Source of the DNA: an uncultured Gammaproteobacteria bacterium
Lineage (GTDB): Bacteria; Patescibacteriota; Patescibacteriia; UBA9934; CAZDDW01
Assembly (NCBI GenBank): GCA_964504365.1
Contig: CAZDDW010000001.1
Coordinates: forward strand, 1 to 57,378
Reading direction: 5' to 3'
Length of the DNA stretch: 57,378 bases
A model generated the notes under the pieces. That model did not search any database. It was not told where the DNA came from and saw nothing but the letters and a program-made list of their open reading frames with translations. Every line of letters starts with the position of its first letter. The first letter of the stretch is position 1. Below are positions 696 through 12,664 of the stretch, one piece after another. A program made the translations under genes and the position numbers.

Positions 696-810
696 CCTGC
701 CAGAGATTCTGAGAGAAGTAGAGAGTAGAAAGTTGAAAGTAGAAAGAAACAAATCTAGTTCCTTTCTACTATCTACCATCTACTTTCTACCCCTCGGAGC
801 CCCTGGCAGG
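696..810 (+). repeat. CCAC-family hairpin copy H1, long form with heptad-repeat insert
   Basis: cctgccag...ctggcagg outer stem; inner gtagagagtagaaagttgaaagtagaaag / ctttctactatctaccatctactttctac arms. Confidence 0.9.
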
Positions 811-966
811 TCCAAACTACAACGAGAAAGTTATGGCGAGAGATGATAAACTATTGTAGTGAGAGGGCGGTCATTACAACTTAATATCCAAGGCACGTGA
901 ACATTTGTTCGTGTATCTTGGAATCAACATCAGGATGAGCCTGGTGTTGAGGAGGTCGCACAGCTT

Positions 967-1038
967 GGAGGTATCAAAATGAAACTGTGCAAAAGGTGGT
1001 AGTCGGAACCACCTAAAACAAACCGGCCGGCTTGAGCG
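967..1038 (+). promoter_or_regulatory. SD-led 7-codon ORF (MKLCKRW, 979-1002) overlapping an H-type pseudoknot
   Basis: GGAGGT 967-972; stem aggtggt/accacct; loop gtcgg pairs with ccggc 1023-1027 after an A-rich linker. Confidence 0.6.
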
Positions 1039-1134
1039 CCGCTGATTGGGGACTGCACCATTGTGGTGCGAAATCTGGCAGAAATGTCAGTGCGGCTGTG
1101 ACGCAGCTGTAGAAGGGGTATGTTCACCTAACAA

Positions 1135-1159
1135 ACTCATAAAATGTGAGTTCTTTTTT
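1135..1159 (+). terminator. terminator-like hairpin with U-tract
   Basis: actcat-aaa-atgtgagt-like stem followed by tctttttt. Confidence 0.45.
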
Positions 1160-1279
1160 AAAAAAAAGGAGAACATCCTTGTGCATTGTGCACAACGTGC
1201 TTCGGCACGAAAGCAAAACGTTAATCATACGTCAGACCCTTCACCCAAATAGAACGTCAGCAAAAGCTCAGGCTCTGTT

Positions 1280-1930
1280 TTTCCTGGTGACAGACCAGGT
1301 GGATCTGCTCGATCTATATGCTAGAGCAAAAGCGCCACCAAGGTTGTCTATGATCTGAGGTGGTGGTGGATACGCGGCAATTGCCTGCTGCGTTGAAGCT
1401 GGAATAGTAGAGGCCGGCAAGTGCCCGGACCCAAAAGAGTGTTATCAAGGGTCCTCACGAGGGATTCAGTTCTCAAAAGAGAGCAGCACTCACCATATCT
1501 GCTTGGCAAGCAGGTCTGTGGGCATTCACGGATGAGGACCAATGAGCAAGTGAAACTAGCAGTGCTTTGTAGAGAATCCCCGCCACCGGACTTTAGTGCC
1601 GGGGTTGCTGCGTTTAACGGCGCGTAGTGAAGGGGTACAACCCAACGTCCAGCATTGTGTTGGACAAAACTGTCAGCCCTCGCCTTGCCAGATTCAGTTC
1701 TGGAAGAAAAGGAGGGTGAGGAGGGTGGCATCTCCTTGATAAAAAACATGGCCAAAAAAAGCTCGTTCAAGGCATGTTAGGGAATCCTGTTTTGCGGGAT
1801 CAGCCACAGGAAGGTATAAAGGCCGGACAAGGAGTACGGCCTGGAGCCTAGGCAATGGGTATATTGTGTAGGATATGAACGGGGCATGTTCGCTTCCGTA
1901 ATATTCTTCCCCTGTTGCGACAAATCCTGG
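1280..1930 (+). ncRNA. large structured non-coding RNA, copy 1 (family unidentified)
   Basis: No credible CDS; 72/75 nt identical block with 9262-9336; compensatory changes against copies 2 and 3; ends approximate. Confidence 0.75.
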
Positions 1931-1973
1931 TGATAGAGAAATCGAATTAGAACCCAACACCCTGGAGGTAATC

Positions 1974-11496: not shown

Positions 11497-11521
11497 AGTA
11501 TAATAACGCCAAGGAGGGACA

Positions 11522-11749
11522 ATGTCCCAGATCGAATACAAGATTTTCGACGCTATTCCGTACATCTGGGGCTGGGCACTGATCCTGGGAATCTGGGGAG
11601 TGCTCATCGCCCTGATGTCTGAGGTTTTCGGCTTACCGGCGGTCTACACTCGGGTTACCGAGCACGCCATTGCTCCGGGCATCCTTTGCCTGTTCCCGGC
11701 TGTACTCAGCGAACCCTTCATCTACAAGATTTGGGGGCCAGGATCATGA
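11522..11749 (+). CDS. small membrane protein (75 aa)
   Basis: SD AAGGAGG; hydrophobic. Confidence 0.7.
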   Translation: MSQIEYKIFDAIPYIWGWALILGIWGVLIALMSEVFGLPAVYTRVTEHAIAPGILCLFPAVLSEPFIYKIWGPGS

Positions 11750-12018
11750 ATACCATTTTCAAATGGTTTGTGGCTATCTGTGCTGCTGTCCTGATTCCGT
11801 TTCACCACCTGTACTTGTTCGCAGTCGCTTACGAGTACCTGCTTCACGGCAACAATCCGAACGGTTACACTCTGTTTGGATACTTGGCCGAAGTAGCCAT
11901 TGTCCTGTCCGGCGACGGGGTGATGCTGCTTCTGTTGATGCTGGTGATCTGGATCCGCTTCGTTCGTTCCCGTCATCTCACCCCGAGTTCGTCCTCGGGG
12001 CCCCACCAGAGCTTCTGA
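11746..12018 (+). CDS. small membrane protein (90 aa)
   Basis: ATGA coupling; hydrophobic; stop TGA lies inside hairpin H9. Confidence 0.7.
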   Translation: MNTIFKWFVAICAAVLIPFHHLYLFAVAYEYLLHGNNPNGYTLFGYLAEVAIVLSGDGVMLLLLMLVIWIRFVRSRHLTPSSSSGPHQSF

Positions 12019-12039
12019 ATATTCAGGGTTTCTGGTGGG
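12002..12039 (+). repeat. CCAC-family hairpin copy H9, short form
   Basis: cccaccagagcttctgaatattcagggtttctggtggg. Confidence 0.8.
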
Positions 12040-12063
12040 TACTATTTATGTGGAGGAGACGTT

Positions 12064-12468
12064 TTGAAGAATACCGAAAGAACAATGCGCAGTTTCGTCT
12101 TTCTGGTGTACCAGCTGGCTGTGATCGAACAGCTACCGCCCACGCCGTGGACGGATCACAAGGTCACCACTGACAAGCGCGCCATGCTCTTGCGCCAGGG
12201 CTGGAAGAATGCCAGCAAGGGTCGGATGCAGATGTGTCTACGCTTCGATCTGCCGGACGGATCCGCTGCCTTCCTGGGCAACGGCGACCTCCGGGGTAAC
12301 GGCAGCAACGGCTGGTTCGGTCTGATCGAAGGGCCGATCGCCGAGCGCGTCGGTTACAGGTGGATCGAGTTCGGCCCCCTGGCCGATATCGAGATCGACA
12401 CCAAGATCCTTCTGGCTTCGCTGCCGCGGCACCAGCCGTTCAGGCTTCGTCCGAGGCCGACTGGCTGA
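12064..12468 (+). CDS. hypothetical protein (134 aa)
   Basis: SD GGAGGAG before TTG 12064; GC-rich coding bias. Confidence 0.65.
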   Translation: MKNTERTMRSFVFLVYQLAVIEQLPPTPWTDHKVTTDKRAMLLRQGWKNASKGRMQMCLRFDLPDGSAAFLGNGDLRGNGSNGWFGLIEGPIAERVGYRWIEFGPLADIEIDTKILLASLPRHQPFRLRPRPTG

Positions 12469-12575
12469 GATCCGTTCTTCACTGGACAACTGATCACTAC
12501 CCCCCAACTCACCCTGTACCAGACACCACTTCGTGACGTCGGTACAGGACCTTGCCCCGAGCACGACCTCGGGGC

Positions 12576-12664
12576 CCCACCTAAGCGCGGCAATATTTTG
12601 CCTCAGAGCATAAAAGATCTCTCTCCTTTAGTTCAAGGTAGAACCATTGCTGTGCTTAGGTGGG
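12576..12664 (+). repeat. CCAC-family hairpin copy H10 (diverged)
   Basis: cccacctaagcgcggcaat...attgctgtgcttaggtggg followed by SD AGGAGG and ATG 12681. Confidence 0.6.

What the first reader, a model, noticed from the sequence alone, without database searches (positions are those of the whole stretch)
696..12664. Ten-copy CCAC...GTGG hairpin with fixed base and swappable apex
Copies at 696, 5557, 6477, 7888, 8771, 9652, 10382, 11393, 12002 and 12576. The basal stem covaries (ccaccag/ctggtgg, ctgccag/ctggcag, ccacttg/caagtgg). Nine copies keep an internal loop and a ttc(t/a)ga/tc(g/t/a)gg inner stem, while the apex ranges from about 5 nt to about 80 nt. A conserved mismatched base plus a variable terminal structure is how integron attC sites are organised, but the attC R-box sequences are absent. 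It could be a different single-strand recombination site or an RNase III-like or translation-control element.
Basis: partly seen in the sequence, partly recalled or inferred. Interest (0 to 1): 0.8.

Follow-up and report, generated by a model that had tools for sequence, protein, structure and literature searches.

The report
Conserved RNA hairpin punctuating island genes
A previously undescribed, strongly covarying 20-base-pair RNA hairpin sits in front of almost every gene unit in GC-rich, fast-changing gene islands of ultra-small (Candidatus Uhrbacteria-like) bacteria; it most likely marks where a long operon transcript is cut or protected, and it is not an integron recombination site.

Summary
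All ten hairpins are real (z = -4.8 to -10.2). The genome holds about 24 copies, all on the gene strand, inside three GC-rich islands of a 45% GC Uhrbacteria-like genome. Related copies occur in 26 of 162 genomes of the order.

The core is a 20-bp helix with three conserved features: a central mismatch, a U.G wobble, and invariant pairs next to the loop. In 59 copies from 19 genomes, 18 of 20 pairs show compensatory changes.

It reads as sense-strand RNA:
- GNRA or UNCG loops in 23 of 62 copies, against 0 of 62 on the other strand.
- G.U 142 against A.C 67.

It opens the downstream unit. A variable hairpin (A) abuts it upstream in 60 of 61 copies, an SD-led ORF follows in 49 of 65, and the last gene of an array keeps A but not this hairpin.

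Four of the five long apexes are a nested genome-wide GTAGA palindrome, related to 23S rRNA intervening-sequence elements.

attC membership fails: no R boxes, no nearby integrase, and wrong placement. Rfam has no match.

Best reading: an intercistronic processing and stability signal, probably an RNase III substrate.

The parts
1..37 (+). 3' half of a further hairpin B copy, cut off by the contig start
   Evidence...ATTCAGAACTTCTGGTGGAG matches the 3' arm of the family
657..694 (+). hairpin A (variable, GC-rich) abutting copy 1
   Evidence: CCCTGAACC...GGTTCAGGG read from the sequence. An upstream-adjacent hairpin is found in 60 of 61 family members
696..810 (+). hairpin B copy 1 (base CCTGCCAG/CTGGCAGG), long apex
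   Evidence: -56.7 kcal/mol, z = -10.2
718..790 (+). GTAGA-heptad palindrome nested in the apex of copy 1
   Evidence: member of an 18-copy genome-wide repeat
5537..5554 (+). hairpin A before copy 2. A second small hairpin lies at 5506-5526
   Evidence: sequence
5557..5671 (+). hairpin B copy 2, long apex (GTAGA palindrome 5580-5651)
   Evidence: z = -8.0
6452..6475 (+). hairpin A before copy 3
   Evidence: CCCGGAAC...GTTCCGGG
6477..6591 (+). hairpin B copy 3, long apex (GTAGA palindrome 6499-6571). Followed by the 21-aa ORF 6635-6700, a terminator and a long non-coding stretch
   Evidence: z = -7.8
7867..7887 (+). hairpin A before copy 4
   Evidence: GCGGTTAG...CTGACCGC
7888..7931 (+). hairpin B copy 4, short form with UUCG tetraloop. 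SD-ATG of the 260-aa gene lies 17 nt downstream
   Evidence: 63 bits with R1, z = -4.8
8749..8769 (+). hairpin A before copy 5
   Evidence: GCGGCGC...GCGCCGC
8771..8882 (+). hairpin B copy 5, long apex (GTAGA palindrome 8795-8860)
   Evidence: z = -8.7
9633..9651 (+). hairpin A before copy 6
   Evidence: TGGTCAG...CTGACCA
9652..9697 (+). hairpin B copy 6, short form with UUCG tetraloop. Its 3' arm ends in GGGAGG, the only SD-like motif before ATG 9713
   Evidence: 60 bits with R1, z = -6.2
10361..10381 (+). hairpin A before copy 7
   Evidence: GCAGGCA...TGCCTGC
10382..10428 (+). hairpin B copy 7 (base CCACTTGAG/CTCAAGTGG), short form. Followed by a ~130-nt conserved leader (10429-10569)
   Evidence: z = -6.4; leader repeats
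11372..11392 (+). hairpin A before copy 8
   Evidence: GCAGGCA...TGTCTGC
11393..11496 (+). hairpin B copy 8. Same base and inner stem as copy 7, with a unique 60-nt two-hairpin apex
   Evidence: z = -6.4; apex unique in the genome
11981..12000 (+). hairpin A before copy 9
   Evidence: CCCCGAG...CTCGGGG
12002..12039 (+). hairpin B copy 9, short form. An SD-led start lies 24 nt downstream
   Evidence: 56 bits with R1, z = -4.9
12555..12574 (+). hairpin A before copy 10
   Evidence: CCCCGAG...CTCGGGG
12576..12664 (+). hairpin B copy 10. Divergent: only the base CCCACC/GGTGGG and the context are kept, and the apex is unique
   Evidence: z = -8.8. G001 has the same kind of variant
13138..13160 (+). 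hairpin A after the last island gene, with no hairpin B behind it
   Evidence: GGCCTGATCG...GATCGGGCC read from the sequence
13168..13205 (+). intrinsic terminator that ends the island operon
   Evidence: 13-bp stem plus T run
14500..14932 (+). full-length relative of the apex insert: GTAGA inverted repeats flanking a 23S rRNA intervening-sequence protein gene (14538-14900)
   Evidence: PF05635, E = 3e-29

Best explanation
Hairpin B is a cis-acting element of the sense-strand RNA.

Setting:
- Each GC-rich island looks like one long operon. This is inferred from three things: a host-type promoter with a leader at one end, a strong terminator at the other, and no excess of internal promoters.
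- Every unit inside the operon is bracketed. A unit is an ORF, or a leader plus ORF, or a mini-ORF plus a long structured RNA. A variable hairpin A closes the previous unit. The conserved hairpin B, 0-2 nt further on, opens the next unit, usually 17-80 nt before its Shine-Dalgarno site.

Anatomy of B:
- It is a 20-bp helix, about two helical turns, with a conserved pyrimidine-pyrimidine mismatch 12 pairs from the base.
- It has a conserved U.G wobble.
- Its loop is free to vary, or to carry 60-90-nt insertions.

This is what a stem-reading double-strand RNA enzyme needs, not a loop-reading protein.

Proposed mechanism (inferred, not shown): host RNase III cuts B. This splits the long transcript into separate messages and releases the embedded RNAs. 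Hairpin A is left as the 3' protector of the upstream message.

The long apexes are secondary. In 4 window copies and 1 C13 copy, a genome-wide GTAGA palindrome, related to RNase III-excised 23S rRNA intervening sequences, sits in the loop.
For: Structure:
- All ten window copies fold far better than shuffles.
- In a structure-blind MAFFT alignment of 59 distinct copies from 19 genomes, 84.6% of cells pair against 67.2% in shuffles (0 of 500 reach it).
- In the same alignment, 18 of 20 pairs change on both sides, and slid controls pair at 31-51%.

RNA on the sense strand:
- 17 GNRA and 6 UNCG loops among 62 short loops, against 0 of 62 on the opposite strand.
- G.U 142 against A.C 67.
- U.G at pair 17 in 40 of 59 copies.

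Position:
- All copies lie on the gene strand.
- 49 of 65 have an SD-led ORF of at least 30 aa starting 17-114 nt downstream.
- 60 of 61 have another hairpin ending within 4 nt upstream, against 37 of 61 in the control.
- The last gene of an array keeps hairpin A, but B is replaced by the terminator. This holds in G000 and in G001.
- No hairpin follows the last gene of island 2.

Operon layout:
- One consensus promoter plus leader sits at the head.
- There is no excess of promoter-like sites inside (8 found, 8.7 expected), and one strong terminator lies at the end.

Enzyme:
- An RNase III gene is present in this genome.
- It is present in 150 of 162 genomes of the order, including 25 of 26 hairpin-bearing ones.

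Apex:
- The loop tolerates insertion, so recognition cannot be through the loop.

Background knowledge:
- RNase III needs about 20 bp of dsRNA.
- It processes the phage T7 early polycistronic transcript at intercistronic hairpins with internal loops.
- It excises 23S rRNA intervening sequences.
Against: - No cleavage data exist.
- RNase III is nearly universal in the order, while the hairpin is patchy (26 of 162 genomes). Its presence therefore does not discriminate.
- The stem sequence is more conserved than a generic dsRNA substrate needs: C-G in 59 of 59, A-U in 59 of 59, G-C in 48 of 59. This may point to a sequence-specific partner, to recent common descent, or to the bias of a model-based search.
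- Some copies (w9652, w12002, G002) are almost perfect helices without the internal loop.
- A single-operon transcript is inferred, not shown. At least one internal intrinsic terminator exists (6842-6865).
Confidence: 0.4

Rival explanations
1. Uncleaved protective or insulating hairpin. B, together with A, is never cut by a dedicated enzyme. It blocks 5'-to-3' (RNase J) and 3'-to-5' exonucleases. Decay that starts in one cistron therefore does not spread to its neighbours, and each unit keeps its own half-life and a defined 5' UTR.
For: - The helices are very stable, at -22 to -57 kcal/mol.
- The tandem A+B arrangement sits at every unit boundary.
- RNase J is encoded in the window at 29669-31657.
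- A alone remains after the last gene.
- Background knowledge: 5'-terminal stem-loops protect mRNAs from RNase J1 or RNase E, and REP-type intercistronic hairpins protect upstream cistrons.
Against: - A barrier needs neither a fixed 20-bp length, nor a conserved central mismatch and U.G wobble, nor conserved stem sequence across four families of the order. The variable hairpin A shows what a mere barrier looks like here.
- A 5' protector works only at a 5' end, which still requires a cut or a transcription start just upstream. No promoters are seen there.
Confidence: 0.25
2. Operator for a sequence-specific RNA-binding factor. This could be translational control of the downstream cistron or a processive antitermination signal (nut/put-like) that is reloaded along a very long operon containing untranslated stretches.
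For: - Stem sequence is strongly conserved, with invariant C-G and A-U pairs, UGA/UCG next to the loop and a conserved mismatch.
- The element sits just upstream of the SD. In copy 9652 the only SD-like motif lies inside the 3' arm.
- The operon contains roughly 1-kb non-coding stretches that would invite Rho-type polarity.
Against: - No protein family is shared by islands of different genera, and no known RNA-binding domain was found in island proteins.
- The loop is not conserved and accepts 60-90-nt insertions. Most hairpin-binding operators are read through the loop.
- About 14 copies in at least 18 kb is far more than processive antitermination needs.
- A test for long-range SD sequestration across the connector was negative: 2.72 against 2.49 nt, p = 0.84.
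Confidence: 0.12
3. DNA-level cassette boundary. The palindrome, folded as single-stranded DNA or extruded as a cruciform, is the crossover site of an integrase-less or remotely encoded recombination system that shuffles the island's genes, as attC does in integrons.
For: - The same chromosomal locus holds a GC-rich island with mostly or wholly different content in G000, G001 and G002. The promoter-leader on the left and the host gene on the right are conserved.
- The few shared genes are in partly different order and are duplicated.
- Repeats are homogeneous within an array but differ between arrays.
- One metagenome contig joins 8774 to 5531 head to tail.
- Y1 (IS200/IS605-type) transposase genes, which act on DNA hairpins, exist in the genome.
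Against: - No R boxes are present.
- The only tyrosine recombinases lie at C4 and C9, and the Y1 genes at C10 and C11 are flanked by other repeats.
- GNRA and UNCG tetraloops and the wobble bias indicate selection on the sense-strand RNA fold.
- B precedes units and is absent after the last gene.
- The L255 junction lies in the upstream junction module, a 28-nt direct repeat, not in B.
- Shared genes are re-associated at a finer scale than hairpin-bounded units.
- Ten contigs from other samples match this genome over their full length at 99.95-100% identity, and nine of them are colinear with it.
Confidence: 0.1
4. Selfish or neutral palindromic repeat (MITE/REP-like) that has spread by duplication and gene conversion within islands, without a function for the cell.
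For: - Copies within an island are near-identical, including their flanks.
- The genome is rich in other palindromic repeats.
Against: - The structure is maintained by compensatory changes in 18 of 20 pairs across 19 genomes and four families.
- Orientation and position relative to genes are strict.
- The element is restricted to islands rather than dispersed through the genome.
- The loops are RNA-optimised.
Confidence: 0.05

Closest known systems
Phage T7 early-region RNase III processing signals (R0.3, R0.5, R1, R1.1, R1.3)
   Same: - Hairpins lie between cistrons of one long transcript that is made from promoters at one end and stopped by one terminator.
- Each lies just upstream of the next ribosome-binding site.
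- The helix is about two turns long and interrupted by an internal loop or mismatch.
- The host RNase III is the proposed enzyme.
(Knowledge of T7 comes from the established literature. It was not re-tested here.)
   Different: - There is no sequence relationship.
- T7 sites differ from one another and have larger asymmetric loops. Here the stem sequence is conserved across genera, and a second, variable hairpin always abuts it.
- The setting is chromosomal islands of Patescibacteria, not a phage. No phage match was found, and only one PHROG family, a kinase, was hit.
- Cleavage is unproven.
Integron attC sites, including integrase-less CALIN arrays
   Same: - Imperfect palindromes of 40-120 nt lie between unidirectional, promoterless, mostly orphan ORFs behind one promoter.
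- They have a paired base, a central unpaired zone and a variable terminal structure.
- Repeats are alike within an array.
- The locus is hypervariable between sister genomes.
   Different: - There are no RYYYAAC/GTTRRRY boxes.
- No integrase lies nearby.
- The element goes with the downstream unit and is missing after the last gene.
- The fold is optimised on the sense-strand RNA, whereas attC is recombined as bottom-strand DNA.
REP/BIME intercistronic palindromes of enterobacteria
   Same: Short transcribed palindromes inside operons that can stabilise neighbouring mRNA segments. They are repeated many times.
   Different: REPs are dispersed over the whole genome, occur in both orientations and sit at 3' ends. 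Hairpin B is confined to islands, always on the gene strand, and placed 5' of units. The GTAGA palindrome nested in its apex is the more REP-like element.
23S rRNA intervening sequences (IVS) with PF05635 four-helix-bundle protein genes
   Same: The long apex of copies 696, 5557, 6477 and 8771 is an ORF-less version of the GTAGA inverted-repeat element. At 14500-14932 that element carries a PF05635 gene. By established knowledge, IVS stems are removed by RNase III.
   Different: Here the element sits in an mRNA hairpin loop and in intergenic DNA, not in rRNA. Its mobility and processing were not tested.
5'-terminal stabiliser stem-loops (for example ompA 5' UTR, B. subtilis aprE or ermC leaders)
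   Same: A stable hairpin at the start of a message, close to the ribosome-binding site. The host has RNase J.
   Different: Those hairpins are single, gene-specific and begin at a transcription start. Here a conserved family is repeated inside an operon, so a processing step is needed to put it at a 5' end.

Membership tests
Integron attC site | Inverse core and core sites R'' (RYYYAAC) and R' (GTTRRRY) at the base of the palindrome | tested here: not met
   The base is (C)CCACCAG / CTGGTGG(G) or a covarying variant in all copies. No GTT/AAC boxes are present.
Integron attC site | Integron integrase (intI) next to the array. This is not required for CALINs. | tested here: not met
   PF00589 matches only at C4:67906 and C9:28277, not near any island.
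Integron attC site | The site lies at the 3' end of every cassette, including the last | tested here: not met
   The last genes of island 1, island 2 and the G001 island have no hairpin B behind them. The first gene has none in front.
Integron attC site | The functional fold is single-stranded DNA of the bottom strand, with extrahelical bases | tested here: inconclusive
   The sense strand carries GNRA/UNCG loops (23 of 62 against 0 of 62) and more wobbles (142 against 67), which argues for RNA. A DNA role cannot be excluded by sequence alone.
RNase III substrate of the T7 intercistronic type | About 20 bp or more of double-stranded RNA, often interrupted by an internal loop or mismatch | tested here: met
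   20 covarying pairs with a conserved mismatch at pair 13 (43 of 59 unpaired) and an imperfect zone at pairs 9-10.
RNase III substrate of the T7 intercistronic type | RNase III present in the organism | tested here: met
   PF14622 at C3:69102-69482, 120.8 bits. It is present in 25 of 26 hairpin-bearing genomes.
RNase III substrate of the T7 intercistronic type | Cleavage within the helix in vivo or in vitro | not testable with these tools
REP/BIME | Dispersed over the whole genome, in both orientations, at 3' ends of genes | tested here: not met
   All model hits in the own genome lie in three islands, on the gene strand and 5' of units.
REP/BIME | Cognate RAYT (Y1 transposase) associated with the repeats | tested here: inconclusive
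   Two PF01797 genes exist (C10:30998, C11:10093), but they are flanked by other repeats.
Intrinsic terminator | GC-rich hairpin followed directly by a U tract | tested here: not met
   No T run follows B; purine-rich SD regions follow instead. The scan finds a strong terminator at the island end (13168-13196), and overall counts are no higher than in shuffles (16 against 14.4).
Any Rfam family | Match to a curated covariance model | tested here: not met
   Only chance-level hits to miRNA-precursor models, E 0.09-0.7 and far below gathering scores.

The most novel reading that the evidence does not exclude
Hairpin B, with its partner hairpin A and the conserved promoter-leader 'head', defines an undescribed, integrase-less gene-cassette platform of Patescibacteria.

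In this reading, GC-rich, Shine-Dalgarno-dependent orphan genes and structured RNAs are collected at fixed chromosomal slots. They are expressed as one RNA-punctuated transcript and exchanged between genomes at these connectors. The same hairpin would then serve twice: as an RNA processing signal and as the DNA or RNA handle for cassette exchange.
Probability: 0.1. Interest if true: 0.85.

Novelty: new variant of a known kind. Interest (0 to 1): 0.62.

Why it matters
If the reading holds, ultra-small CPR/Patescibacteria organise their fast-evolving accessory genes as long operons. These genes are mostly small membrane or secreted orphan proteins, with embedded structured RNAs. A dedicated, conserved RNA signal would divide the operons into units. 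This would be a chromosomal counterpart of the phage T7 early-transcript design.

It would give four things:
- A defined RNA family for annotating these islands. It has at least 59 distinct members and clear covariation, and it is absent from Rfam.
- A handle for finding unit boundaries and true start codons in genomes where most island genes are orphans.
- A testable substrate for RNase III in a lineage with almost no experimental RNA biology.
- A marker for a class of hypervariable loci whose turnover mechanism is unknown.

The nested IVS-like palindrome also links mRNA hairpins to the many insertions known in CPR rRNA genes.

Tried and rejected
- **16-mer pattern scans.** Scans of genome contigs and viral contigs with CCACCAGAGNTTCNGA gave only single chance hits and used two scans.
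- **Wrong host assumption.** I first took the host for Saccharibacteria and the GC-rich islands for imports from an actinobacterial host. RNase J relatives show it is Candidatus Uhrbacteria-like, so that idea was dropped.
- **Prophage reading.** There is no DNA match in the phage collection. Only a widespread PPDK-like kinase hits phage records. There are no PHROG structural or replication genes and no PADLOC defence families.
- **Protein homologues.** The 260-aa island protein has no homologue outside its own species among 5.8 billion proteins. No protein family is shared by islands of different genera, so no island-encoded partner can be named.
- **Translational coupling.** In four window connectors a post-stop pyrimidine tract appears to pair with the downstream SD. 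This is not enriched over shuffles in 41 connectors: 2.72 against 2.49 nt, p = 0.84. Rejected as a general mechanism.
- **tRNA-like minihelix or alternative pairing.** TGGAAG...CTTCCA could compete with the base of B, but it occurs only in four paralogous junctions (5483, 7848, 8727, 9610), so there is no independent support.
- **Internal promoters, ECF-type promoters or terminators at the hairpins.** No support.
- **RNase III phyletic pattern.** Not discriminating.
- **Literature.** Three full-text searches found no description of such hairpins or islands.

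
Full report
**1. Setting**

The window is the first 57 kb of contig C1 of a 1.07-Mb, 19-contig genome of about 45% GC.
- Beyond about 13.2 kb the window holds ordinary cellular genes: RNase P RNA, three tRNAs, RNase J, UvrA, ValRS and a type IV secretion pilin.
- RNase J relatives at 79-82% identity come mostly from MAGs labelled Candidatus Uhrbacteria or Patescibacteria.
- Window 1-13200 differs. It has 49-61% GC, all genes are on the + strand, most ORFs are small orphans with strong AAGGAGG ribosome-binding sites, and three stretches of roughly 1 kb lack ORFs.
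- The island continues on contig C13 (24700 to the contig end, GC 59%).
- In a sister species (G002) the same locus is assembled in one piece between the same flanking genes. This shows that the end of C13 and the start of C1 are one locus.

**2.

- All fold as single long hairpins, with z-scores of -4.8 to -10.2.
- An eleventh copy is cut by the contig start. Four more lie on C13.
- A covariance model built from five short copies (R1) finds no hits elsewhere in the backbone. It does find two further arrays in other GC-rich islands of the same genome:
  - seven copies of a sister type, CCCATCAGAG...CTGTGATGGG, at C1:172094-175199 (minus strand);
  - two copies at C1:265862-266580.
- Each of these islands also starts with a consensus TTGACA-17-TATAnT promoter and a leader. 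Island 2 ends with a strong terminator.

**3. Anatomy and conservation**

A second model (R2, 20 sequences from 4 genomes) finds the element in 26 of 162 genomes of the order and in 17 of 55 genera. The copies form same-strand clusters. In the loci examined they lie in segments of 50-63% GC within genomes whose flanks are 38-50% GC.

I aligned 59 distinct short copies from 19 genomes with MAFFT, without any structural guidance. The 20-pair helix is strongly supported:
- 84.6% of cells pair, against 67.2% in shuffles (0 of 500 reach the observed value).
- 18 of 20 pairs change on both sides.
- 226 cells are compensated, against 80 expected.
- Registers slid by 1-3 columns pair at only 31-51%.

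Family hallmarks:
- an 8-bp base, with C-G invariant at pair 8;
- an imperfect middle, with A.C or G.G at pairs 9-10 and a pyrimidine-pyrimidine mismatch at pair 13 in 43 of 59 copies;
- a 7-bp upper stem, with U.G at pair 17 (40 of 59), G-C (48 of 59) and A-U (59 of 59) next to the loop;
- a free loop.

Rfam has nothing comparable.

**4. RNA or DNA, and which strand**

Among 62 short loops, 17 are GNRA and 6 are UNCG on the gene strand. None is on the opposite strand. G.U pairs outnumber A.C mismatches by 142 to 67. These loop classes stabilise RNA, and they occur only in the transcribed sense. Selection therefore acts on the sense-strand RNA fold. I regard this as the best-supported step of the argument.

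**5. Position**

- In 49 of 65 copies an SD-led ORF of at least 30 aa starts 17-114 nt downstream.
- In the window the element precedes three kinds of unit:
  - an ORF directly (7888, 9652, 11393, 12002, 12576, 5557);
  - a conserved ~130-nt leader and then an ORF (10382, and three C13 copies);
  - a mini-ORF and then a long non-coding stretch (6477, 8771, and similarly 696).
- In 60 of 61 copies another hairpin (A) ends within 4 nt upstream. A is GC-rich and variable in sequence. The control gives 37 of 61, and mean folding energy is -15.2 against -9.2 kcal/mol.
- Array ends separate the two hairpins. After the last gene of island 1, and after the last gene of the G001 island, hairpin A is present but B is replaced by the terminator.
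- The first gene behind the head has no B.

So A closes a unit and B opens the next.

**6. The 'swappable apex'**

- The long apex of copies 696, 5557, 6477, 8771 and C13:27689 is a 66-73-nt palindrome of GTAGA heptads.
- This palindrome occurs 18 times across many contigs.
- At 14500-14932 it flanks a gene for a 23S rRNA intervening-sequence protein (PF05635, E = 3e-29). An earlier first-reader note (e1-5229305) pointed to this, and I confirmed it.
- The five island copies share a private variant (AGTTGAAAG). They are therefore probably copies of one insertion, spread with the hairpin module.
- In G002 the apex carries a different small insert.
- Copies 11393 and 12576 have unique inserts.
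- The loop is thus a permissive site. Recognition of B cannot depend on it.

**7. What the island is**

- The same slot holds an island in G000, G001 and G002.
- The head is conserved (promoter, a leader beginning ..GAGAGAGCCC.., an early terminator) and so is the right-hand host gene. The cargo is almost entirely different.
- The few shared genes are in partly different order and some are duplicated.
- No protein family is common to islands of different genera.
- The only recognisable proteins here are a PPDK-like kinase and a dual-specificity-phosphatase-like protein.
- There is no phage signature and no defence-family hit.
- The 260-aa protein has no homologue outside the species.
- Ten contigs from other samples match this genome over their full length at 99.95-100% identity, and nine are colinear with it. 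The exception is L255, which joins 8774 to 5531 through a 28-nt repeat in the junction module and has a 52-nt terminal overlap. This could be a circle, a tandem duplication or a module conversion. The join is not inside B.

**8. Mechanism**

*Shown:*
- B is a conserved, covarying fold of the sense-strand RNA.
- It sits at the 5' side of each unit.
- It has a partner hairpin at the 3' side of the previous unit.
- Its apex tolerates insertions.
- RNase III and RNase J are present.

*Inferred:*
- Each island is transcribed from its head promoter as one long RNA. Promoter-like sites show no excess (8 against 8.7 expected), and the one strong terminator-like site lies at the island's end.
- B is the signal at which this RNA is divided.

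*Why RNase III is the most likely reader:*
- The helix has a constant length of two turns.
- It has a conserved central defect.
- The loop is irrelevant. That points to a stem-reading dsRNA enzyme, and RNase III is the one broadly available in bacteria.
- The layout copies the phage T7 early transcript.
- The nested IVS-like palindromes belong to a class that RNase III excises from rRNA (established knowledge).

After a cut in B, hairpin A would protect the upstream 3' end.

I put 0.40 on this reading. I put 0.25 on the version in which B is not cut and acts as a decay barrier and insulator.

*Weaknesses:*
- RNase III is nearly universal in the order (150 of 162 genomes), so its presence proves nothing.
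- The stem sequence is more conserved than a generic substrate requires.

**9. Other readings**

- **Sequence-specific operator or antitermination site (0.12).** The conserved stem bases suggest it. The free loop argues against it, as do the lack of any shared island protein and the negative test for SD sequestration.
- **DNA recombination site (0.10).** The hypervariable slot and the within-array homogeneity suggest it. However, attC-defining features fail: there are no R boxes, no nearby integrase and the placement is wrong. The fold is also RNA-optimised.
- **Functionless selfish repeat (0.05).** This is contradicted by the covariation and the strict placement.

**10. Relation to earlier notes of this scan**

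Several AI notes describe two- or three-hairpin 'connectors' between small genes in islands of other Patescibacteria (e1-4898245, e1-844862, e1-1307072). One describes the head of island 2 of this genome (e1-1220772). They agree with what I measured here, but they are not independent evidence.

**11. Verdict**

- The attC reading is not supported, and the RNA-element reading is.
- This is an undescribed RNA structural family. It is a new variant of the known kind 'intercistronic processing or stability hairpin', placed in an unusual, hypervariable island system of CPR bacteria.
- Its function remains unproven.

Noticed in passing
window 830-1970, 6700-7850, 8900-9600: Three long stretches without credible ORFs inside the island operon. 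They share motifs (for example GAT.AGCCTCAGGAGGGT, AGCCTAGGCAG.GGGTA, CTGCGACAGATCCTGAAA) and each follows a hairpin B. No Rfam match. They look like copies of a large structured RNA.
   Followed up: no
window 10429-10569; C13:26857-26929, 27828-27936, 28958-29034, 29356-end: A conserved leader of about 130 nt (..ATCCCGCAGTGAAGT..CCCGGGCGT.AGCAA..AATAGGAACCGTC.T.GTGGCGGAAAC) lies between hairpin B and the start codon of unrelated genes. No Rfam match.
   Followed up: partly
C13:24490-24860 (L248:990-1360); C1:263260-262640 (minus); G001 L389:8410-8600; G050 L273:17010-16800 (minus): Conserved island 'head': a consensus TTGACA-17-TATAnT promoter and a leader starting ..GAGAGAGCCC.. that ends in an intrinsic terminator. 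In G000 an RNA of about 150 nt follows (AAACCGTTACCAGTAGGGCTTATGCC...CGGTCACTATGCTCAC). It looks like a regulated entry to the operon.
   Followed up: partly
locus L255 (ENA ERZ23499064 scaffold_22498), window 5531-8774: A 3295-nt metagenome contig with a 52-nt terminal overlap joins window 8774 to 5531 through the shared 28-nt junction TTGCGGCGCAATTCTCGCGCCGCACTTC. This could be a 3.2-kb circle, a tandem duplication or conversion between junction modules. It could not be checked with reads.
   Followed up: partly
window 14500-14932 and 17 other places in the genome (for example C1:254723, C1:262098, C3:61491, C5:39638, C6:39891, C6:41553): A genome-wide palindrome built of GTAGA heptads, 53-75 nt long. 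One copy pair flanks a PF05635 23S rRNA intervening-sequence protein gene. It behaves like a MITE/REP-type element. Two Y1 transposase genes (C10:30998, C11:10093) exist but are not flanked by it.
   Followed up: partly
window 6635-6865: A 21-aa ORF with a strong SD is followed by a + strand intrinsic terminator (stem 6842-6859, T run 6860-6865), just before a long non-coding stretch. The layout is attenuator-like.
   Followed up: no
window 1974-5003: A PPDK_N plus PEP-utilizers kinase (789 aa, about 40% identical to phage 'kinase' genes) has an unrecognised C-terminal third. A dual-specificity-phosphatase-like protein follows. These are the only island proteins with family matches.
   Followed up: no
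C1:175430-175250 (island 2, first ORF) and the G029 island (L275): Short peptides share the motif (A/V)WFTTSP(Q/E)QL(R/K).E. In G000 island 2 the ORF lies near the start of the island. Apart from same-genus G000-G002 homologues, this is the only protein similarity found between islands, and the only one between different genera (42% over 45 aa).
   Followed up: no
window 13205-13282 compared with the island genes: The first backbone gene (ATG 13280) follows a TGcTACAAT -10 box by about 10 nt and has no SD, so it looks leaderless. Island genes carry strong AAGGAGG sites. Backbone and islands may use different modes of translation initiation.
   Followed up: no
window 45609-45684: tRNA-Ile with a genomically encoded UAU anticodon (ARAGORN). 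This is rare in bacteria.
   Followed up: no
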